Notes under the pieces: model-generated
The model's input: the letters and a program-made list of their open reading frames with translations, nothing else
Told to the model about the DNA's origin: nothing
Databases searched by the model: none
Made by a program: the position numbers and the translations under genes
From: a virus
Lineage: Duplodnaviria > Heunggongvirae > Uroviricota > Caudoviricetes
IMG/VR virus record: IMGVR_UViG_2529293065_000012
Length of the DNA: 26,750 nt
Reading direction: 5' to 3' (one strand)
Shown: positions 3,583-8,982 of the stretch, in pieces
Layout of the letters: every line of letters starts with the position of its first letter
Numbering within the stretch: position 1 is the first letter of the stretch

Positions 3583-3845
3583 CCATTCTGGACTACATCG
3601 CTACCCATCCGGGTTGTAGCGGCGGAGAAATCGCCGCAGCATTGAATACCCCAACCACAGCCATCAATGCTGAGTTACGCCGACTCTGGCGCGGCGGCTT
3701 AGTCATCAGAACAAACCGCAGCACAGGTGGTCGCGCTCGCAAAGCAGGAGGCCAAGCTTCTTACCACGTAAACCCGATGCCGTTCGGGTGTAGCAATCCA
3801 CTTACTCACATGTTTAACCAGCTACTGAAGGAAACCAGAGCATGA
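3579..3845 (+). CDS. Probable winged-helix DNA-binding protein (88 aa)
   Basis: MTILDYIATHPGCSGGEIAAALNTPTTAINAELRRLWRGGLVIR looks like a MarR/ArsR-style wHTH. It is translationally coupled on both sides. Confidence 0.55.
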   Translation: MTILDYIATHPGCSGGEIAAALNTPTTAINAELRRLWRGGLVIRTNRSTGGRARKAGGQASYHVNPMPFGCSNPLTHMFNQLLKETRA

Positions 3846-4141
3846 GCACCATCAATCACCAGAAGCTACGCGAACTGGCATTTGCCCTGCAACGAATGGC
3901 AACGCCTCAAAAATTACTGGTATTTCGCGCAATGCTCTCGCCGTCTGCTGTGCTGGCACTGCTGGATGAGCTGGAGCACGCCAGAACCACGGCTCCTGCC
4001 ATTCGCCTGACGCTCCATCATGAAATCGCTGATTTCTGCGCGACGTTGAAGGCGCCAGGCGAACCGGAAACACCGGAAGCAATACAGCAAGAGCTGCTGC
4101 AACGCATTGACAAGGTTTTTGATTTTTTTCTGAACCAGTAA
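3842..4141 (+). CDS. Hypothetical early protein, possibly ead/Ea22-like (99 aa)
   Basis: INHQKLRELA... and AVLALLDELEHAR resemble motifs I remember from ead/Ea22-like prophage proteins. The family call is tentative. Confidence 0.5.
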   Translation: MSTINHQKLRELAFALQRMATPQKLLVFRAMLSPSAVLALLDELEHARTTAPAIRLTLHHEIADFCATLKAPGEPETPEAIQQELLQRIDKVFDFFLNQ

Positions 4142-4162
4142 GAAACCAGAACATGCACACAC

Positions 4163-4284
4163 AAAAAAACCGCTTGCCATGCCGCAATCAGTCAGGTTAC
4201 ATTTCCGCTGCACCTCACAAAACGGGTGTCGGGTTTCGCAGCCTGCTGACTACACAAGCGCACAACCGCGCCAGCGGTTTTTTT
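4163..4284 (+). ncRNA. Rod-like structured element closed by a 12-nt terminal inverted repeat; candidate ncRNA or single-strand DNA signal
   Basis: AAAAAAACCGCT (4163-4174) is the exact reverse complement of AGCGGTTTTTTT (4273-4284). Nested helices are AGTCAG 4190-4195 / CTGACT 4246-4251, GCTGC 4207-4211 / GCAGC 4238-4242, and CACC 4211-4214 / GGTG 4225-4228. No credible ORF is present. Confidence 0.35.
4264..4284 (+). terminator. Intrinsic terminator-like hairpin plus T7 run
   Basis: AACCGC-GCCA-GCGGTT is followed by TTTTT. Its 3' arm and T-run are shared with the long-range pairing to 4163-4174, so the two folds are mutually exclusive. Confidence 0.5.
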
Positions 4285-4325
4285 GTGCGTACTGTATTGC
4301 CACGTTTTTTTCGCGTCAGAATTAT

Positions 4326-4401
4326 GGCGGGGCGTACGGGGCCGACTTCGGTCGGGCCGGGTTCTTGTGTAGCCGGTACTGCGAACCTCGTACGTCTCGC
4401 C
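4326..4401 (+). other. 76-nt branched structure closed by a 13-bp stem, containing a C(UUCG)G tetraloop hairpin
   Basis: GGCGGGGCGTACG (4326-4338) pairs with CGTACGTCTCGCC (4389-4401), giving 11 Watson-Crick and 2 G-U pairs. The inner hairpin is CCGAC-TTCG-GTCGG at 4342-4355. GCCACCCA follows the stem. Confidence 0.35.
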
Positions 4402-4463
4402 ACCCACAGTTTCGCAGCTCTGGATGGTGAGTTTTCACAACTTACTACACAAGGGGCCACACC

Positions 4464-4655
4464 ATGGCAAACCGCAAACCACACCGCGCTATCGCGGAGC
4501 GTCGTCACATCCAGACTGAAATCAACCGCAGACTTTCCCGCGCATCACGCGTCGCGCAAATCATGCACATCAATATGCTGCATGAGCGCAGCCACGCACT
4601 ATCAAACATTTATTCCGCCTCTGTTTTCAGCTATCTGGCGGATGATCTGCACTAG
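4464..4655 (+). CDS. Small basic protein with an arginine-rich N-terminus (63 aa)
   Basis: An AGGGG SD lies 7 nt before the ATG. The N-terminus is MANRKPHRAIAERRHIQTEINRRLSR. No family was recognised, and it could be non-coding. Confidence 0.45.
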   Translation: MANRKPHRAIAERRHIQTEINRRLSRASRVAQIMHINMLHERSHALSNIYSASVFSYLADDLH

Positions 4656-4766
4656 CTTCAACAGCTCATCCAGCAGCAAAACAAACTCCATTAATTCCTG
4701 TTCCGGGCCTTTCCTGCACCTTGCGGCGGGAGGCCTTCGCACATCTGTAACAAGAGGATTGCCGCA

Positions 4767-5132
4767 ATGATTCTCGCCAACGACTTTCTTGAATACCTGC
4801 TCAACACAGAACGTGATCTTGCCGCTCGCGTGCGTGATCGTTATGACATGTACCTGAAATCCCTGCCTGTACCGCAGCTCGCTGACGGAAAGATTGTTAT
4901 TGATGGTCGCTACATGATTGACAGCCACGAGGGAAATTACAGGCTTTACCGCATTGAAGGTGGCACCCCGTCCGTTATTGGCATTTACCAGCGCCCATCC
5001 TCTGCAATCGTCGATGTGATTGCCGACAGCATCCGCATCACACATCGCCATGCCGACACAGAAGACACCGTGCTGGAAATTCAGCGGCTGGCTACAGTCT
5101 GCCGCGACACCCTGAATGGCATGTCGAAGTAA
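4767..5132 (+). CDS. Hypothetical protein immediately upstream of A (121 aa)
   Basis: An AAGAGGA SD lies upstream. The ORF ends 6 nt before the A start. No family was recognised. Confidence 0.65.
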   Translation: MILANDFLEYLLNTERDLAARVRDRYDMYLKSLPVPQLADGKIVIDGRYMIDSHEGNYRLYRIEGGTPSVIGIYQRPSSAIVDVIADSIRITHRHADTEDTVLEIQRLATVCRDTLNGMSK

Positions 5133-5138
5133 ATCACT

Positions 5139-7946
5139 ATGACGGCAGAGTACATCAGGGACTGGCAACAACCGCGCCACGCAGTGGGGCGTGAAGGAAC
5201 GGGGATCCCCGCTCCTGAATCCGCGCTTTCCTCCTGGCTGGATGCCTACCGGGTAGAGAACGAGCGCTGCCAGGAAATGGCTGATGCGGCGTTCTCCGCA
5301 ACGCCGCTGGGCAACCTGATTAATAAAAGCCTGGACGCACAGGAAAAACAGGACAAAACCATCACACTGGCAGGAGACGCCAGAAAACAGGCACGCGGCG
5401 CGGTGGATGAAGCCATGGCTTCGCTGCGCCTGCTGCCGTCCTATCTGCGCGATCCGCTTATTCGCCCCCTCTCCTTCCTGCGCAAAAAACAGGAAGCCGA
5501 TCGTCAGAAAGGCAAAAAGAGCTGGCAGGCTGAACGCTACGCGCGCGGAAACCTGCGCAAAATATTCGAACGTCTGGAGCGCACCGATCACCGCTGGCTG
5601 ACACAGGGTTATCGCTCCCTTGCCGGACGCGAACGCCTGGATGATTTGCTTTACCTGCCGCAGCTCAACCAGCACCAGATACAGACGCTGGCCACCATGA
5701 CGGCGGCGATGTTCAGCAGCACCTTCGAAAAACTCTGCGATGGCTTTGGCGCGACCGATGGCGAACTGACCATGGATGTAACGCTGAAGGCGTATCAGAT
5801 GCTGGCCCGCATGGGGTTACACCTGCACGCCATGCCGCCACATTACGAAGCTCTGAACAAGAGCGATCCGGATACGGAACTGTTACCGGGCGCAATCCTT
5901 CGCCTGACCTGTGCGGAATGGTGGAAACGCAAACTGTGGCTGTTACGTTGCGAGTGGCGGGAAGAACAACTCCGCGCCGCCTGTCTGGTTTCCAGAAAAA
6001 CATCGCCCTATCTGAGCCAGGACGCGTTAAGCGAGTTTCGCGCACAGCGCGAGAAAACACGCGATTTCCTGAAAAGTTTCATGCTGGAAAACGAAGACGG
6101 GTTCACGATTGATCTCGAGACAGTGTATTACGCGGGAGTAAGTAACCCGGTTCACCGTAAGGCAGAAATGATGGCCACCATGAAGGGGCTGGAACTTCTG
6201 GCCGAAGCCCGTGGCGACAAAGCGGTGTTTCTGACCATCACCTGCCCGTCAAAATACCACGCCACAACAGAGAACGGTCATCCGAATCCCAAATGGAACG
6301 GGGCCACCATGCGCGACTCCAGCGATTACCTGGTTAACACGTTTTTTGCGGCGGTCCGCAAGAAACTGAACCGCGACGGCCTGCGCTGGTATGGCATCCG
6401 CACGGTGGAGCCTCACCATGACGGCACCGTGCACTGGCATATGATGGTCTTTGCTCATCCGGAAGAAATCGACACCATTGTGTCCCACACCCGCGATATT
6501 GCCATTCAGGAAGATCGTCACGAGCTGGGTGATGATATTACCCCACGCTTTAAGGCGGAGTACGTCGACGGCTCAAAAGGCACGCCAACCAGCTACATCG
6601 CCACCTACATCGGAAAGAACCTGGACAGCCGCGCCGTAGATGGCATCGACCCGAAAACGGGCAAGCCACGCGTTGACCACGAAACCGGAAAATCAATGGC
6701 CGAGAGCGTGGAACGCGCCATCGGCTGGGCGCGCCTTCACCGTGTCCGCCAGTTCCAGTTCTTTGGTATCCCCTCCCGTCAGGTGTGGCGTGAACTCCGC
6801 CGCCTTGCCAGCCAGATGGCACGCAACCCGGAAGGCCCGCAACGGCTGAAGGATGACGCAATGGATGCGGTACTCGCTGCCGCTGATGCCGGATGTTTTG
6901 CCACCTACATAGAGAAACAGGGCGGCGTACTTGTTCCACGCCAAGACTACCTGATTCGCACCGCCTACGACCTCGCAGATGAGCTGAACGATTACGGCGA
7001 ACAGAGCGTACAGATTTACGGGATCTGGTCGCCGCTCATCGGGGAGTCTTCCCGCGTATGCACGCATCCGGATAACTGGAAGCTGGTAAGACGCAAACCG
7101 GAAGCGGAAGACAGCTCCCACGAAAATGGTTTTGACCTTCAGGGCGGCCCTGCCGCCCCTTGGACTCGTGGCAATAACTGTCCCCGTGTACAGGAAACGG
7201 ACAACAACGGGACAGAACAGCCGGAAGAACGGCCAGCACCGTGGCCGCAGCTTCCTGACGGCGTTGACGTGAATGAATGGATGCGCTCACTGAAACGGCA
7301 CGAACGCCGGGCGCTGATGCGTTCGCTGCGTGACAAACAGGCAAAAAACAGCAGTGATGAAATGCAGAACTGGACACAGAGCCGCAAACAGCCACAGCCT
7401 TTGCCTGATAACCACGAGTTACTCGCTAAAGAATGGCGGGAGTCTGCTGAATCTCTCGGCCTGCATATCGGTGAACAGCAGATGCAGCACCTGTTACGGG
7501 GCGGCAGTCTGTACGTTGACGGCAGCATCATTGCACCGCAGGGATTTGAAATTGTACGCAAACCGGATACCCGCCCGGACAGCCGAATCACGCAGCTCTG
7601 GCAACGCCTGAGTCGTAATCACGGCGTAAGCAGCACGGAGATCCGCCATAACCCGGTCGCCAGCTATCTGGAACAACTAGAGGCATCAGACCCTGAAGCC
7701 GCCGCACGCCTGGCATCCACACTTCAGCAAGACCAGAACACCATGAAAACACCAGTTACCGTACTTTCTGACATGCTGCGCGCCATCCGCGACGCAGAGC
7801 ACGCACAGAGAATCAGTGAAACCACTGAACGCGCCCGCCGCAAAGCAGACCTGCTGCGGGGTGGCCTGAGCAGTGGAAACAAAAAACAGACAAAAACGGG
7901 ATTCACAAATCCCGTAAATGAGCAAAAAACGCGCCGCGATATATGA
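5139..7946 (+). CDS. A: Rolling-circle replication initiation endonuclease (P2 gpA family), 935 aa with a long C-terminal tail
   Basis: FLTITCPSKYH, VEPHHDGTVHWHMMVF (HUH-type metal motif) and YIATYIGKN (paired catalytic Tyr) parallel P2 A FITLTCPSKYH, VEPHHDGTPHWHMMLF and YIAKYISKN. The start codon is uncertain because the SD is weak. Confidence 0.9.
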   Translation: MTAEYIRDWQQPRHAVGREGTGIPAPESALSSWLDAYRVENERCQEMADAAFSATPLGNLINKSLDAQEKQDKTITLAGDARKQARGAVDEAMASLRLLPSYLRDPLIRPLSFLRKKQEADRQKGKKSWQAERYARGNLRKIFERLERTDHRWLTQGYRSLAGRERLDDLLYLPQLNQHQIQTLATMTAAMFSSTFEKLCDGFGATDGELTMDVTLKAYQMLARMGLHLHAMPPHYEALNKSDPDTELLPGAILRLTCAEWWKRKLWLLRCEWREEQLRAACLVSRKTSPYLSQDALSEFRAQREKTRDFLKSFMLENEDGFTIDLETVYYAGVSNPVHRKAEMMATMKGLELLAEARGDKAVFLTITCPSKYHATTENGHPNPKWNGATMRDSSDYLVNTFFAAVRKKLNRDGLRWYGIRTVEPHHDGTVHWHMMVFAHPEEIDTIVSHTRDIAIQEDRHELGDDITPRFKAEYVDGSKGTPTSYIATYIGKNLDSRAVDGIDPKTGKPRVDHETGKSMAESVERAIGWARLHRVRQFQFFGIPSRQVWRELRRLASQMARNPEGPQRLKDDAMDAVLAAADAGCFATYIEKQGGVLVPRQDYLIRTAYDLADELNDYGEQSVQIYGIWSPLIGESSRVCTHPDNWKLVRRKPEAEDSSHENGFDLQGGPAAPWTRGNNCPRVQETDNNGTEQPEERPAPWPQLPDGVDVNEWMRSLKRHERRALMRSLRDKQAKNSSDEMQNWTQSRKQPQPLPDNHELLAKEWRESAESLGLHIGEQQMQHLLRGGSLYVDGSIIAPQGFEIVRKPDTRPDSRITQLWQRLSRNHGVSSTEIRHNPVASYLEQLEASDPEAAARLASTLQQDQNTMKTPVTVLSDMLRAIRDAEHAQRISETTERARRKADLLRGGLSSGNKKQTKTGFTNPVNEQKTRRDI
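7892..7919. repeat. Copy 1 of a 28-bp direct repeat containing the 20-bp palindrome ACGGGATT-CACA-AATCCCGT
   Basis: The palindrome lies at 7896-7915, inside the last codons of A. It is repeated 73 bp downstream. Confidence 0.8.
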
Positions 7947-8022: not shown

Positions 8023-8982
8023 ATGAAAATTTGTATCGACGACGGCTCCACCAACATCAAGCTGGCATGGACTGAGAACGGCGAATGCCGCAACGCCATC
8101 AGCCCGAACAGCTTCAAGTCGGAATGGTCTGCGCCGTTCGGTGTCACGCAGCCCGCGAACTACATGCTTGATGGCGTGCGCTATGGTTTTGATCCGGTCA
8201 GCGATCGCTTTGTCCAGACGACCGACACGCAATACCAGTACAGCGATGTGAATGTCATTGCCATTCATCACGCGCTGGTCAAATCAGGCATCACGCCACA
8301 GGAAGTGGATGTGGTTGTCACCCTGCCACTGAGCGAGTATTTCGACACAAACGCACAGCCGGATATGACCAACATCAACCGCAAAAAAGCGAACGTCATG
8401 CGCCCGGTGGAGTACCAGAACGGTGAGGCATTCACTATCCGTAACGTGCGGGTTATGCCTGAATCCATTCCGGCTGGCTTTAAGGCACTGGCTAACATGA
8501 GTCCGTTTGAATCCCTGCTGATTGTGGATTTAGGCGGAACCACGCTGGATGTGGCAAAGGTTCAGGGGCAACTGGCAGGTATCAGCCAGGTGTTTTGCGA
8601 TCCACACGTAGGCGTTTCTCTGATGGCCGATGCCGTACTGTCGGTGATGGCCACTAACGGTATGCGCACCAGTCACCACATCGCCAATACCATTATCGAA
8701 CATCGCCATGATGAAGCCTGGCTGCGCCAGCACATCCACAATGACGCGCATTACGCCAGCCTGATGGCGGTTATTCGTGAAAAGGAAGAAACACTGAAAC
8801 AACGCGTGATCCGCGCGCTGGCGGTTTTTTCGGGTTACGGGCGGGTGATGGTTGTCGGTGGCGGGGCGGAGATTGTGGCACCCGCTATCCGCGAAGCCTG
8901 CGGAGTTAATGCGACTTTCATCGCGGACGGGGTGCCACAGTTTGCTCTGGTTAATGGGCTGTACGCAATGGACAAGGAGTAA
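8023..8982 (+). CDS. parM: ParM/StbA actin-like plasmid segregation ATPase (319 aa)
   Basis: Colinear by eye with R1 ParM along the whole length: IDDGSTNIKL, ISPNSFK.EW, QYSDVNV.A.HHAL, RKKAN, VMPESIPAG, DSLLI.DLGGTTLD, GISK/Q, GVSL, FSGY..VMV.GGGAE, LVNG.Y. Confidence 0.9.
   Translation: MKICIDDGSTNIKLAWTENGECRNAISPNSFKSEWSAPFGVTQPANYMLDGVRYGFDPVSDRFVQTTDTQYQYSDVNVIAIHHALVKSGITPQEVDVVVTLPLSEYFDTNAQPDMTNINRKKANVMRPVEYQNGEAFTIRNVRVMPESIPAGFKALANMSPFESLLIVDLGGTTLDVAKVQGQLAGISQVFCDPHVGVSLMADAVLSVMATNGMRTSHHIANTIIEHRHDEAWLRQHIHNDAHYASLMAVIREKEETLKQRVIRALAVFSGYGRVMVVGGGAEIVAPAIREACGVNATFIADGVPQFALVNGLYAMDKE

What the first reader, a model, noticed from the sequence alone, without database searches (positions are those of the whole stretch)
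4142..4463. About 320 bp of ORF-poor, densely structured sequence in the early operon upstream of gene A
The only long ORF here (205 aa, 4153-4770) has a non-protein-like sequence. The DNA instead shows three kinds of structure:
- **Rod-like element (4163-4284).** It is 122 nt long and closed by an exact 12-nt inverted repeat (AAAAAAACCGCT / AGCGGTTTTTTT) with at least three nested helices. Its 3' arm is also part of a local terminator hairpin (4264-4284), so two mutually exclusive folds exist.
- **Second T-run.** A T7 run lies at 4305-4311.
- **Branched structure (4326-4401).** It is 76 nt long, closed by a 13-bp stem, and contains a C(UUCG)G tetraloop hairpin.

Possible roles, in no order:
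- one or more phage ncRNAs
- a terminator/antiterminator switch controlling entry into A
- a single-strand initiation (ssi/sso-type) signal for lagging-strand priming, since gpA-type replication is rolling-circle
Basis: seen in the sequence. Interest (0 to 1): 0.62.

Follow-up and report, generated by a model that had tools for sequence, protein, structure and literature searches.

The report
P4-type IsrK/C4 antisense-RNA immunity module
The structured stretch is a well-known phage regulatory cassette, a small decoy RNA (IsrK/SeqA) followed by an antisense RNA (C4/CI) that blocks the ribosome site of an anti-repressor-like gene; here it sits in a P2-like prophage just before the replication gene, so it is real but ordinary.

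Summary
They are two curated RNA families. Rfam finds an IsrK/SeqA-like sRNA at 4210-4284 (61.9 bits, threshold 50) and a C4/CI-like antisense RNA at 4320-4407 (83.2 bits, threshold 45). P4 itself, P88-like phages and lambdoid phages carry the same pair in the same order.

The C4 single-stranded segments b' (4364-4372) and a' (4379-4385) are exactly complementary to two sets of sites:
- a1/b1 inside IsrK (4235-4241, 4250-4258)
- a2/b2 downstream (4411-4417, 4445-4453), where b2 overlaps the Shine-Dalgarno of an epsilon-like "derepression" gene (ATG 4464)

Across 119 non-identical modules these three sites change together.

The "non-protein-like" 205-aa ORF is the counterpart of P4 eta (Pfam Phage_ASH). 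Its frame stays open through the RNAs in 103 of 115 modules.

The "rod" is mostly promoter DNA plus the IsrK terminator. Its inner helices show no covariation, and its outer inverted repeat is conserved but unexplained. The T7 run is not conserved. The ssi idea has no support.

Verdict: already known kind, low interest. The module is unannotated in GenBank/RefSeq yet occurs in about 21% of complete E. coli genomes.

The parts
4153..4770 (+). eta-like open reading frame (205 codons, Pfam Phage_ASH type). It runs through the promoter, IsrK, C4, a2/b2 and, in the +1 frame, the epsilon-like gene. Its TGA overlaps the ATG of the next ORF (ATGA at 4767-4770).
   Evidence: Pfam Phage_ASH 25.0 bits, residues 16-109. 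Same frame as P4 eta/kil. Open in all P88-like relatives. Open in 103/115 modules against 3 and 1 for the other frames. P4 eta function is described in PMC10111431.
4157..4177 (.). Left arm of the 21-nt inverted repeat (19/21). It contains the A7 run (4163-4169) that lies directly upstream of the -35 hexamer. Its role is unexplained; it may be a UP-element-like A-tract.
   Evidence: It is conserved and invariant in 23 P88-like modules and absent from lambdoid and P4 homologues.
4174..4203 (+). Sigma-70-like promoter of the IsrK-like RNA (TTGCCA, 18 nt spacer, TACATT). The inferred start is about 4210.
   Evidence: Scan. Every homologue has a promoter-like pair of hexamers at the same distance from IsrK model position 1. 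In P88-like modules the hexamers and spacing are kept while the spacer sequence varies.
4210..4284 (+). IsrK / P4 SeqA-like small RNA: hairpin 1 (4210-4229); hairpin 2 (4230-4245) with site a1 (4235-4241) in its loop; site b1 (4250-4258) in the linker; intrinsic terminator (4264-4284).
   Evidence: Rfam RF01394, 61.9 bits, GA 50, full length. Terminator scan. Compensatory changes in hairpin 1 and in the terminator across 88 sequences. a1/b1 coordinates.
4270..4290 (.). Right arm of the 21-nt inverted repeat. It is the 3' half of the IsrK terminator plus its T-run and GTGCGT.
4285..4319 (+). 35-nt spacer that contains the T7 run (4305-4311). No stable structure; not a terminator.
   Evidence: Fold -4.3 kcal/mol, z = +0.69. 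The T-run is T5 in 15 of 23 P88-like modules, and the overlapping promoter-like site is not kept.
4320..4407 (+). C4 / P4 CI-like antisense RNA. The mature form is inferred as about 4326-4404. Parts: 17-bp closing stem, UUCG hairpin (4342-4355), hairpin carrying loop b' (4364-4372), junction a' (4379-4385), and a 3' ACC tail like an RNase P substrate.
   Evidence: Rfam RF01695, 83.2 bits, GA 45, full length. z = -4.46. 99.7% of cells paired and 12 of 27 pairs with compensatory change in 82 sequences.
4411..4417 (+). Target site a2 (TTCGCAG), complementary to a'.
   Evidence: Present downstream in 98% of 119 modules against 6% with a mismatched C4.
4445..4456 (+). Target site b2 (CTACACAAG, 4445-4453), overlapping the Shine-Dalgarno AAGGGG (4451-4456) of the epsilon-like gene.
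   Evidence: In the window the 9-mer occurs only at 4250 and 4445, and its complement only at 4364; 0.1 per strand is expected by chance.
4464..4655 (+). Epsilon-like 'derepression protein' gene, the first gene under C4 control. Here it is 63 aa, cut short by a TAG; relatives have 76 aa.
   Evidence: Pfam PF25738, 30.7 bits, cut-off 27. 29% identity to P4 epsilon, E = 4e-9, using the 76-aa allele. Alleles compared.
4767..7946 (+). Downstream genes whose expression the module probably gates: orf121 (4767-5132) and replication gene A (5139-7946).
   Evidence: ORFs. Phage_GPA 434.7 bits. Polarity onto these genes is inferred from P1/P4, not shown here.

Best explanation
The interval is the regulatory core of a P4/P1-type antisense-RNA immunity (anti-repressor control) module, carried here by a P88-like member of the P2 family.

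**How it most likely works**
1. An internal sigma-70 promoter (4174-4203) starts transcription at about 4210.
2. Most transcripts stop at the intrinsic terminator at 4284. This gives a roughly 75-nt IsrK/SeqA-like RNA that displays sites a1 and b1.
3. Read-through transcripts contain the C4/CI-like element. It is excised to a stable RNA of about 79 nt (about 4326-4404). Excision by RNase P at its tRNA-like stem is inferred by analogy with P1 and P4.
4. C4 pairs through b' and a' with a2 and b2. Because b2 covers the Shine-Dalgarno of the epsilon-like gene (ATG 4464), that gene is not translated. The untranslated RNA is then prone to premature termination, which keeps orf121 and gene A silent from this promoter.
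5. IsrK carries the same target sequences as a2/b2. It therefore competes for C4, in cis or in trans, and so relieves the block, as shown experimentally for Gifsy-1 IsrK.
6. Transcripts that come from the early promoter upstream are translated through the whole module in the eta-like frame (4153-4770). As in P4, this should suppress both the IsrK terminator and C4 action and pass ribosomes on to orf121 through the ATGA overlap.

**Shown here:** family membership, structures with covariation, three-site complementarity and its co-variation, overlap of b2 with the ribosome site, and conservation of the open frame.

**Inferred from homologues:** RNase P processing, polarity onto gene A, the decoy role of IsrK, and translation of the eta-like frame.
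For: - **Rfam hits.** Full-length matches well above gathering scores for C4 (83.2 against 45) and isrK (61.9 against 50).
- **Same pair elsewhere.** The same pair occurs in the same order in P88, Shae_phiSM, six lambdoid phages and P4. In P4 the matches fall on the known CI RNA and on the seqA leader.
- **C4 structure.** 99.7% of cells are paired. 12 of 27 pairs show compensatory changes. The covariation score is 0.435 against 0.06-0.08 for slid controls.
- **IsrK structure.** 8 of 13 predicted pairs show compensatory changes.
- **Exact complementarity in the window.**
  - b' 4364-4372 matches b1 4250-4258 and b2 4445-4453.
  - a' 4379-4385 matches a1 4235-4241 and a2 4411-4417.
- **Three-site co-variation.** In 119 non-identical modules with 73 different (a',b') combinations:
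  - the complement of a' is found upstream in 98% and downstream in 98%;
  - the complement of b' is found in 79% and 82%;
  - all four sites are found in 70%;
  - with a mismatched C4 the figures are 3-10% for single sites and 0% for all four.
  Three near-identical P88-like phages carry three different, internally consistent specificities.
- **Regulated gene.** It is homologous to P4 epsilon.
- **Promoter.** A promoter-like site is kept at a constant distance from IsrK position 1 in all homologues.
- **Open frame.** The eta-like frame is open in 103/115 modules against 3 and 1 for the other frames. It has 0 stops inside 24 distinct epsilon-like genes, against 1-5 in the other frame. It ends in ATGA on at least four different downstream contexts.
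- **Literature.**
  - IsrK and C4 are the same as seqA and CI RNA of P4, with similar systems in P1, P7, N15 and lambdoid prophages (PMC3632133).
  - IsrK in trans activates translation of the downstream anti-repressor more than 100-fold (PMC4825925).
  - P4 eta has an internal constitutive promoter, and its translation prevents termination (PMC10111431).
Against: - No expression data exist for this prophage. The transcription start, RNA ends and processing are all inferred.
- The -10 hexamer is weak (TACATT), and the promoter call is only a consensus match.
- The minimum-energy fold of the whole 271-nt read-through RNA pairs a1/b1 with a'/b' in cis and leaves a2/b2 free. The balance between cis and trans pairing, and therefore the sign of IsrK's effect, cannot be settled by computation.
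- Published mechanisms differ between homologues: translational repression in P1, termination in P4, activation by IsrK in Gifsy-1.
- The epsilon-like gene in this window is truncated (63 aa against 76 aa), so the output of the module may be defective in this particular prophage.
- Openness of the eta frame inside the epsilon-like gene is only weakly significant on its own (P about 0.1-0.35 per sequence under synonymous resampling).
Confidence: 0.85

Rival explanations
1. A 122-nt rod-like RNA (4163-4284) is closed by the A7CCGCT/AGCGGT7 helix and competes with the local terminator hairpin. It acts as an antiterminator switch, possibly specific to transcripts that arrive from the early promoter, and decides whether RNA polymerase reaches gene A.
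For: - The inverted repeat is real, extends to 19/21 over 21 nt, and is the longest in the window.
- The rod fold has z = -4.07.
- Both arms are conserved in all 23 distinct P88-like modules, even where flanking sequence and the promoter spacer differ.
- Early-promoter transcripts must somehow pass the IsrK terminator to express gene A.
Against: - The left arm lies upstream of the -35 hexamer, so it is absent from transcripts made by the IsrK promoter.
- Both arms are invariant, so there is no covariation either way.
- The inner 'nested' helices (promoter spacer with the IsrK linker) are no better in real pairs than in mismatched pairs: -11.25 against -10.78 kcal/mol.
- The repeat is absent from lambdoid and P4 homologues, which have the same terminator problem.
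- The left arm has the same sense as the terminator's own 5' arm, which is only 3 nt from its partner and should win kinetically (inference).
- The left arm lies 10 nt inside the eta-like ORF, so ribosomes would unwind it.
- The A7 run sits where a UP-element proximal subsite would be. That explanation rests on my own knowledge and was not tested.
Confidence: 0.08
2. The conservation reflects a protein, not RNAs. The 205-aa ORF would encode a functional 'Ash family' / transcriptional-repressor-like protein, as many database annotations imply.
For: - Pfam Phage_ASH gives 25.0 bits here and 43-57 bits in lambdoid 'Rha' CDSs over the same DNA.
- PHROG 'transcriptional repressor/regulator' families match at E = 4e-15.
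- The frame is open in 103/115 modules.
Against: - Substitutions are compensatory in RNA helices.
- The hypervariable segments are exactly the a/b pairing sites and change in concert at three places. A protein constraint does not predict this.
- G-U pairs are frequent.
- In P4 the ORF annotated 'cI gene product' covers the CI RNA, and the immunity factor is known to be the RNA (PMC3632133 and PMC10111431).
- In P88-like phages the 3' half of the ORF overlaps a bona fide Pfam-matching gene in another frame.
- Translation of the frame is likely to matter, but as ribosome transit rather than through the product.
Confidence: 0.04
3. The hairpins are a single-strand initiation (ssi/sso-type) priming signal used on displaced single-stranded DNA during gpA-driven rolling-circle replication.
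For: - The + strand folds well as DNA too: C4 region z = -4.03, rod z = -2.07.
- Gene A lies 700 nt downstream.
Against: - The same elements occur in lambdoid phages and in P4, which do not replicate through gpA.
- The helices keep pairing through G-U, which fits RNA, and they are strand-specific: the minus strand of the C4 region gives z = -1.91.
- The loops co-vary with mRNA target sites at a ribosome-binding site.
- Nothing in the data calls for a DNA-level function.
Confidence: 0.02

Closest known systems
Satellite phage P4 immunity region: PLE promoter, seqA leader, CI RNA, seqC, nested genes eta/kil, then epsilon and alpha
   Same: - Same order of parts: constitutive promoter inside an eta-type ORF, IsrK/seqA element with terminator, C4/CI RNA, and downstream target next to the ribosome site of the first gene.
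- Rfam hits on P4 itself: isrK at 8692-8615 and C4 at 8507-8420.
- An epsilon homologue and then a replication gene follow.
- The open frame running through the RNAs is the same frame as P4 eta.
   Different: - The host element is a P2-like helper-type phage (Cox, gpA, P88-like), not a satellite.
- The IsrK-C4 spacer is 35 nt instead of 107 nt.
- The first controlled gene is the epsilon homologue itself, 57 nt after C4, not kil.
- The eta-like frame is out of frame with that gene, overlaps it in +1, and ends in ATGA on the next ORF.
- The replication gene is gpA, not the alpha primase.
- A 21-nt inverted repeat flanks the IsrK unit.
immI operon of phages P1 and P7 (c4 antisense RNA, icd, ant), and the related N15 anti-immunity system
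   Same: - C4-family RNA with a' and b' segments.
- a1/b1 sites upstream and a2/b2 downstream overlapping the ribosome site of the first gene.
- The output is an anti-repressor-type function.
- Specificity alleles differ only in the a/b sequences.
- The family is Rfam RF01695, named after P1/P7 c4. Barquist et al. link P1, P7, N15 and P4. The P1 details come from my own knowledge of Citron & Schuster 1990 and Biere et al. 1992.
   Different: - P1 and P7 were not fetched or compared here.
- The regulated proteins (Icd, Ant) are unrelated to the epsilon-like protein.
- In Rfam the P1-type upstream element is the separate family c4-a1b1 (RF03163). It matches the window only weakly: 19.9 bits against GA 46.7. 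The IsrK model fits well.
Salmonella Gifsy-1 isrK-orf45-anrP locus (IsrK sRNA plus STnc1160)
   Same: - IsrK with its own promoter and a leaky terminator.
- A processed stable RNA downstream.
- An ORF (orf45) whose first AUG (A107 of the transcript) falls, by my estimate from the lambdoid spacing, at the conserved AUG at the 5' edge of the C4 element. Its translation is coupled to the downstream anti-repressor gene.
- IsrK in trans switches translation on (PMC4825925).
- The lambdoid homologues fetched here have the same layout.
   Different: - Gifsy-1 is a lambdoid prophage.
- The regulated gene is a Rha/AnrP-type anti-repressor, in frame with the upstream ORF in the lambdoid relatives, rather than an epsilon-like gene out of frame.
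- No AntQ-type output is evident here.

Membership tests
C4 antisense RNA (Rfam RF01695; P1/P7 c4, P4 CI RNA) | Covariance-model score at or above the curated gathering score, over the full length of the model | tested here: met
   83.2 bits against GA 45, model positions 1-87 of 87, 4320-4407 + strand.
C4 antisense RNA (Rfam RF01695; P1/P7 c4, P4 CI RNA) | Long closing stem enclosing two hairpins, supported by compensatory changes | tested here: met
   In 82 distinct sequences, 99.7% of cells are paired and 12/27 pairs have both-side changes. Slid controls give 31-47% paired. Helix 3 is invariant because my search pattern required it.
C4 antisense RNA (Rfam RF01695; P1/P7 c4, P4 CI RNA) | Single-stranded a' and b' complementary to a2/b2 just downstream, overlapping the ribosome-binding site of the first regulated gene | tested here: met
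   b' 4364-4372 matches b2 4445-4453, which overlaps the SD at 4451-4456; the ATG is at 4464. a' 4379-4385 matches a2 4411-4417. These sites co-vary in 119 modules.
C4 antisense RNA (Rfam RF01695; P1/P7 c4, P4 CI RNA) | A second copy of the targets (a1/b1, seqA) upstream of the RNA on the same transcript | tested here: met
   a1 at 4235-4241 and b1 at 4250-4258. The upstream complement of a' is found in 98% of modules and that of b' in 79%.
C4 antisense RNA (Rfam RF01695; P1/P7 c4, P4 CI RNA) | Maturation from a longer transcript by RNase P (5' end) and 3' trimming | not testable with these tools
   Only consistent with the sequence: an invariant G7-C82 pair followed by a purine and an invariant CC (columns 83-85 of alignment A1), like a tRNA acceptor end.
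IsrK / P4 seqA leader (Rfam RF01394) | Covariance-model score at or above the gathering score, full length | tested here: met
   61.9 bits against GA 50, model positions 1-77 of 77, 4210-4284.
IsrK / P4 seqA leader (Rfam RF01394) | Two 5' hairpins plus a Rho-independent terminator, with its own promoter immediately upstream | tested here: met
   Terminator at 4264-4284 and promoter-like site at 4174-4203. Hairpin 1 shows AU/UA and CG/GC swaps in 30-33 of 88 sequences. A promoter is kept in all homologues. The transcription start itself was not measured.
IsrK / P4 seqA leader (Rfam RF01394) | Located directly upstream of a C4-type RNA | tested here: met
   An IsrK-like element was found upstream of C4 in 115 of 119 modules, with spacers of 21-110 nt and 35 nt here.
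IsrK / P4 seqA leader (Rfam RF01394) | Hfq binding; trans-activation of downstream translation | not testable with these tools
   Shown only for Gifsy-1 IsrK (PMC4825925).
P4 eta-type read-through ORF (Pfam PF10554 Phage_ASH) | Open frame that starts upstream of the internal promoter and runs through seqA and CI in the frame of the conserved AUG at the 5' edge of CI | tested here: met
   The ORF 4153-4770 contains the ATG at 4324 in frame. It is the same frame as the P4 214-codon ORF ending at kil's stop. It is open in 103/115 modules.
P4 eta-type read-through ORF (Pfam PF10554 Phage_ASH) | Pfam score at or above the gathering cut-off | tested here: not met
   25.0 bits against a cut-off of 26, E = 2.8e-5. 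Lambdoid counterparts score 43-57 bits. This is a near miss, so membership rests on synteny and frame.
P4 eta-type read-through ORF (Pfam PF10554 Phage_ASH) | In frame with the first C4-controlled gene (nested genes, as eta/kil) | tested here: not met
   The epsilon-like gene is in the -1/+2 relative frame. The ORF overlaps it and stops at ATGA on orf121.
P4 eta-type read-through ORF (Pfam PF10554 Phage_ASH) | Is translated, and that translation prevents termination | not testable with these tools
   Known for P4 (PMC10111431) and for orf45 of Gifsy-1. Here there is only evolutionary evidence.
Single-strand initiation (ssi/sso) signal | Structure needed on single-stranded DNA, independent of transcription, linked to a rolling-circle replicon | tested here: inconclusive
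   The DNA folds are unremarkable on the minus strand. The same element occurs in non-gpA replicons. G-U-dependent helices argue for RNA. No functional assay is possible with these tools.
Terminator/antiterminator attenuator | Mutually exclusive helices, both conserved and covarying | tested here: not met
   The outer helix is invariant, so it is uninformative. The inner helices show no own-versus-cross advantage. The left arm lies outside the IsrK transcript.

The most novel reading that the evidence does not exclude
In P88-type P2-family phages the P4 eta/kil 'nested gene' design has been re-framed. The eta-like ORF overlaps the epsilon-like gene in the +1 frame and is ATGA-coupled to orf121. 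This would give two mutually exclusive routes through one RNA.

- **Early-promoter transcripts.** They are translated in the eta frame, override the IsrK terminator and C4, and deliver ribosomes to orf121 and gene A.
- **Internal-promoter transcripts.** They make the epsilon-like anti-repressor only when IsrK titrates C4.

This would give an otherwise non-inducible P2-type prophage an RNA-gated induction or cross-derepression switch. The 21-nt inverted repeat around the IsrK unit might then serve as a promoter-of-origin sensor.
Probability: 0.25. Interest if true: 0.45.

Novelty: already known. Interest (0 to 1): 0.15.

Why it matters
It mainly matters for annotation.

- The cassette occurs in 1153 of 5426 complete E. 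coli genomes.
- GenBank and RefSeq records leave it blank, or label it 'hypothetical protein', 'ash family' or 'transcriptional regulator', or as an N-terminal extension of Rha anti-repressors.
- Recognising it as IsrK + C4 explains an apparently non-coding gap in the early operon of P88-like prophages.
- It predicts that an epsilon-like anti-repressor, and probably replication gene A, are under antisense-RNA control. The specificity alleles are highly variable: 17 (a',b') combinations in 25 P88-like modules.
- It adds no new principle. The mechanism has been known from P1/P7 and P4 since the 1990s.

Tried and rejected
- **First collection scan.** My pattern had the wrong loop length and did not even fit the window. 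The 35 hits were not used.
- **P4 primary papers.** PMC176756, the J Bacteriol 1999 DOI and PMC94026 are not held. One literature search returned only irrelevant abstract books. The P4 eta mechanism is therefore cited from PMC10111431, and the P1 details rest on my own knowledge.
- **Covariation in the inner helices of the 'rod'.** I first thought I saw compensatory changes between the promoter spacer and the IsrK linker by eye. The own-versus-cross duplex test showed no difference, -11.25 against -10.78 kcal/mol. Rejected.
- **Extension of the inverted repeat beyond the core in divergent members (L069, L160, L084, L152).** Partial and ambiguous, with no clear compensatory change.
- **Second promoter-like site (TTGCCA, 17 nt, AATTAT, 4297-4325).** It would start inside the C4 stem, and none of the 23 P88-like modules matched it in a rough check. 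By eye, the first hexamer is TCGCCA in many of them. Rejected.
- **T7 run as a second terminator.** It has no hairpin and is not conserved. Rejected.
- **Anti-satellite cross-immunity.** I asked whether the helper's C4 shares specificity with P4-like satellites. No (a',b') pair is shared between the epsilon-type and kil-type classes in this sample. No support.
- **Synonymous-codon resampling for selection on the eta frame inside the epsilon-like gene.** Only weak, P = 0.1-0.35 per sequence. The codon pool was biased and the script stopped at a truncated sequence.
- **tRNA/tmRNA scan.** Nothing found.
Full report
**Observation**

- The exact 12-nt inverted repeat is at 4163-4174 / 4273-4284.
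- A terminator-like hairpin with a T-run lies at 4264-4284.
- A T7 run lies at 4305-4311.
- A branched structure at 4326-4401 contains a C(UUCG)G hairpin.

The folds are stronger than chance.
- The 122-nt 'rod' folds at -44.3 kcal/mol (z = -4.07).
- 4320-4407 folds at -47.7 kcal/mol (z = -4.46).
- No shuffle out of 200 did as well in either case.
- The inverted repeat extends to 21 nt with 19/21 complementary (4157-4177 / 4270-4290). It is the longest inverted repeat within 150 nt in the whole window.

The one small error is that the closing stem of the branched element is 16-17 bp rather than 13.

**Identity**

A scan of the whole window against Rfam at curated thresholds gives exactly two hits, and both fall inside the finding.
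- C4 antisense RNA (RF01695): 4320-4407, 83.2 bits against a threshold of 45.
- isrK (RF01394): 4210-4284, 61.9 bits against 50.

Both matches are full length and on the + strand. A permissive scan adds only a sub-threshold match to 'c4-a1b1, a1/b1 targets of C4 antisense RNA' (RF03163, 19.9 bits) at 4197-4249.

The window is a P88-like (Xuanwuvirus, Peduoviridae) P2-family prophage.
- It is 97-98% identical to such phages over 3800-4800.
- It carries Cox, a gpA replication gene at 5139-7946 and an HTH repressor.

The same IsrK + C4 pair, in the same order, is found by Rfam in P88, Citrobacter phage Shae_phiSM, six lambdoid or Stx phages and P4 itself. In P4 the C4 match (8507-8420) is the classical CI immunity RNA, and the isrK match (8692-8615) is the seqA leader made from PLE.

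Barquist et al. state this equivalence explicitly. [quoted passage not shown]

**Anatomy and pairing scheme**

In the window, two single-stranded segments of C4 each have exact complements at two places.

| C4 segment | Sequence | Coordinates | Complement 1 | Complement 2 |
|---|---|---|---|---|
| loop b' | CTTGTGTAG | 4364-4372 | b1 4250-4258, linker of IsrK | b2 4445-4453 |
| junction a' | CTGCGAA | 4379-4385 | a1 4235-4241, loop of IsrK hairpin 2 | a2 4411-4417 |

- The 9-mer CTACACAAG occurs nowhere else in 26.7 kb. About 0.1 per strand is expected by chance.
- b2 overlaps the Shine-Dalgarno AAGGGG (4451-4456) of the ORF that starts at 4464.
- That ORF matches Pfam 'Derepression protein family' (30.7 bits, cut-off 27).
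- Its 76-aa allele is 29% identical to P4 epsilon, the protein that derepresses the P2 helper (E = 4e-9).

**Comparative test**

A pattern scan of viral contigs gave 119 non-identical modules with 85 different C4 sequences.
- **C4 structure.** On 82 of these, 99.7% of helix cells are standard pairs. 12 of 27 pairs show compensatory changes. The covariation score is 0.435 against 0.06-0.08 when partners are slid.
- **IsrK presence.** An IsrK-like element lies upstream of C4 in 115 of 119 modules.
- **IsrK structure.** Hairpin 1 and the terminator covary.
- **Three-site co-variation.** This is the decisive result. There are 73 different (a',b') combinations.
  - The complement of a' is present upstream in 98% of modules and downstream in 98%.
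  - The complement of b' is present in 79% and 82%.
  - All four sites are present in 70%.
  - When C4 is taken from another module the figures are 3-10% for single sites and 0% for all four.
- **Close relatives.** The window, P88 and Shae_phiSM are about 87% identical through this region, yet they carry three different and internally consistent specificities.

This pattern is the hallmark of an immunity-specificity determinant.

**The 205-aa ORF**

It is in fact the counterpart of P4 eta.
- **Database match.** It matches Pfam Phage_ASH just under the cut-off (25.0 against 26 bits).
- **Where the domain falls.** In lambdoid 'Rha' CDSs the Phage_ASH 'domain' falls exactly on the IsrK-C4 DNA.
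- **P4 counterpart.** In P4 a 214-codon ORF in frame with kil runs through PLE, seqA and CI.
- **Openness through the RNAs.** The frame of the conserved AUG at the 5' edge of C4 is open from the IsrK start to b2 in 103 of 115 modules. The other two frames are open in 3 and 1.
- **Openness in P88-like phages.**
  - The frame stays open through the epsilon-like gene in the +1 frame. It has 0 stops in 24 distinct sequences, against 1-5 stops in the other frame.
  - It usually ends in an ATGA overlap with whatever gene comes next, in at least four different sequence contexts.
  - On its own the overlap result is weak (P = 0.1-0.35 by synonymous resampling).
- **Published function.**
  - In P4, the constitutive promoter lies inside eta.
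  - Its transcript terminates because of the CI and seqA interactions.
  - Full-length eta is translated only from the upstream late promoter, and that translation prevents termination (PMC10111431).
  - In Gifsy-1, orf45 is translated and is needed for translation of the anti-repressor. By my estimate from the spacing, its first AUG falls at the same conserved AUG.

An open frame here therefore does not refute the RNAs. RNAs and translation coexist by design.

**The 'rod', the T-run and the ssi idea**

*The rod*
- The left 47 nt of the rod (4163-4209) are promoter DNA.
  - TTGCCA, 18 nt, TACATT lies at 4174-4203.
  - The hexamers and spacing are kept in all 23 distinct P88-like modules while the spacer varies.
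  - An equivalent promoter sits at the same distance from IsrK position 1 in lambdoid phages and P4.
- The left arm is therefore absent from the IsrK transcript.
- Both arms are invariant, so they give no information on pairing.
- The inner helices are no better in real pairs than in mismatched pairs.
- The A7 run sits where a UP-element proximal subsite would be. That is my own knowledge and was not tested.
- The conserved CCGC, and the extension of the repeat to 19/21, remain unexplained.

*The T-run*
- The T7 run has no hairpin (z = +0.69).
- It is T5 in 15 of 23 relatives.

*The ssi idea*
- 362 of 2214 helix cells are G-U pairs (my sum).
- The minus strand folds poorly.
- The element occurs in replicons that lack gpA.

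**Mechanism**

The steps below separate what was shown here from what is inferred.
1. The internal promoter makes IsrK, which ends at the 4284 terminator. *Structure shown; start and termination inferred.*
2. Read-through RNA yields C4, probably through RNase P cleavage before G4326. *Inferred from an invariant acceptor-like stem followed by a purine and CC, and from P1/P4 knowledge.*
3. C4 pairs with a2/b2 and occludes the epsilon-like ribosome site. *Complementarity, co-variation and overlap shown; repression inferred.*
4. The untranslated RNA terminates early, so orf121 and gene A stay off from this promoter. *Inferred from P1/P4.*
5. IsrK, which carries the same sites, competes for C4.
   - Gifsy-1 IsrK activates translation more than 100-fold in trans.
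   - The minimum-energy fold of the 271-nt read-through RNA pairs a1/b1 with a'/b' in cis.
6. Early-promoter transcripts are translated in the eta-like frame and so escape both the terminator and C4. *Inferred from P4 and from frame conservation.*

**Novelty and verdict**

The RNAs, their pairing logic and the eta-type read-through ORF are all described for P1/P7, P4, N15 and Gifsy-1, and Rfam recognises this copy outright. The finding is real but already known.

Points specific to P88-like phages:
- The host is a helper-type P2-family phage.
- The first controlled gene is the epsilon homologue itself.
- The eta-like frame is out of frame with that gene and is ATGA-coupled to the next ORF.
- A conserved inverted repeat flanks the IsrK unit.

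I found no paper describing these points.

Public records do not annotate the RNAs, although the module occurs in 1153 of 5426 complete E. coli genomes. In this window, and in E. coli IHE3034, the epsilon-like gene is truncated to 63 aa.

Noticed in passing
window 4653-4655: The epsilon-like gene ends at a TAG after 63 codons. Close relatives read GAG there and continue to 76 codons. The G-to-T change is a nonsense mutation in the epsilon frame but synonymous (ACG to ACT) in the overlapping eta-like frame. RefSeq annotates the same 63-aa allele in E. coli IHE3034.
   Followed up: partly
L006:1141-2292, L005:1146-2297, L009:1340-2203, L010:8168-8584: Pfam Phage_ASH and several PHROG 'transcriptional repressor/regulator' families are in effect translations of the IsrK-C4 DNA. 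Many lambdoid 'Rha/antirepressor' CDSs are annotated with long N-terminal extensions that run through the two RNAs. The P4 reference record still carries a 'cI gene product' CDS over the CI RNA.
   Followed up: partly
window 4767-4770 and the equivalent sites in L057, L069, L103, L132, L160: The eta-like frame stops at a TGA that overlaps the ATG of the next gene (ATGA), even where the next gene is different. In L069 and L160 its own ATG also sits in an ATGA with the preceding ORF. This suggests translational coupling in and out of the frame.
   Followed up: partly
window 4157-4177 / 4270-4290: A 21-nt inverted repeat (19/21) brackets the whole IsrK transcription unit: promoter, sRNA and terminator. 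It is conserved in P88-like modules only. No explanation tested so far accounts for the conserved CCGC and the extension beyond the A/T runs.
   Followed up: partly
25 epsilon-type modules among L001-L165: a' and b' reassort independently. There are 7 a' and 13 b' variants in 17 combinations. For example, a' CTGCGAA occurs with five different b'. This suggests recombination or separate diversification of the two pairing sites. No (a',b') pair is shared with P4-like (kil-type) modules.
   Followed up: partly
L069, L086, L122, L152: Four viral contigs carry two IsrK-C4 modules each, 0.9-8.4 kb apart. In L069 and L152 they are of different classes (one epsilon-type, one other). They could be adjacent or nested elements such as a prophage plus a satellite.
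   Followed up: no
window 8023-8982 and downstream: According to the annotation of the 98%-identical phage record, the ORFs after gene A are a ParM-like plasmid segregation protein and a partitioning/stability protein. This is unusual cargo for an integrated P2-like prophage (ORF).
   Followed up: no
window 4210-4480: The minimum-energy fold of the complete read-through RNA does not contain the C4 cloverleaf. Instead a1/b1 pair with a'/b' in cis and the a2/b2/SD region is left open (-104.2 kcal/mol, z = -3.05). This resembles the alternative conformers reported for Gifsy-1.
   Followed up: no
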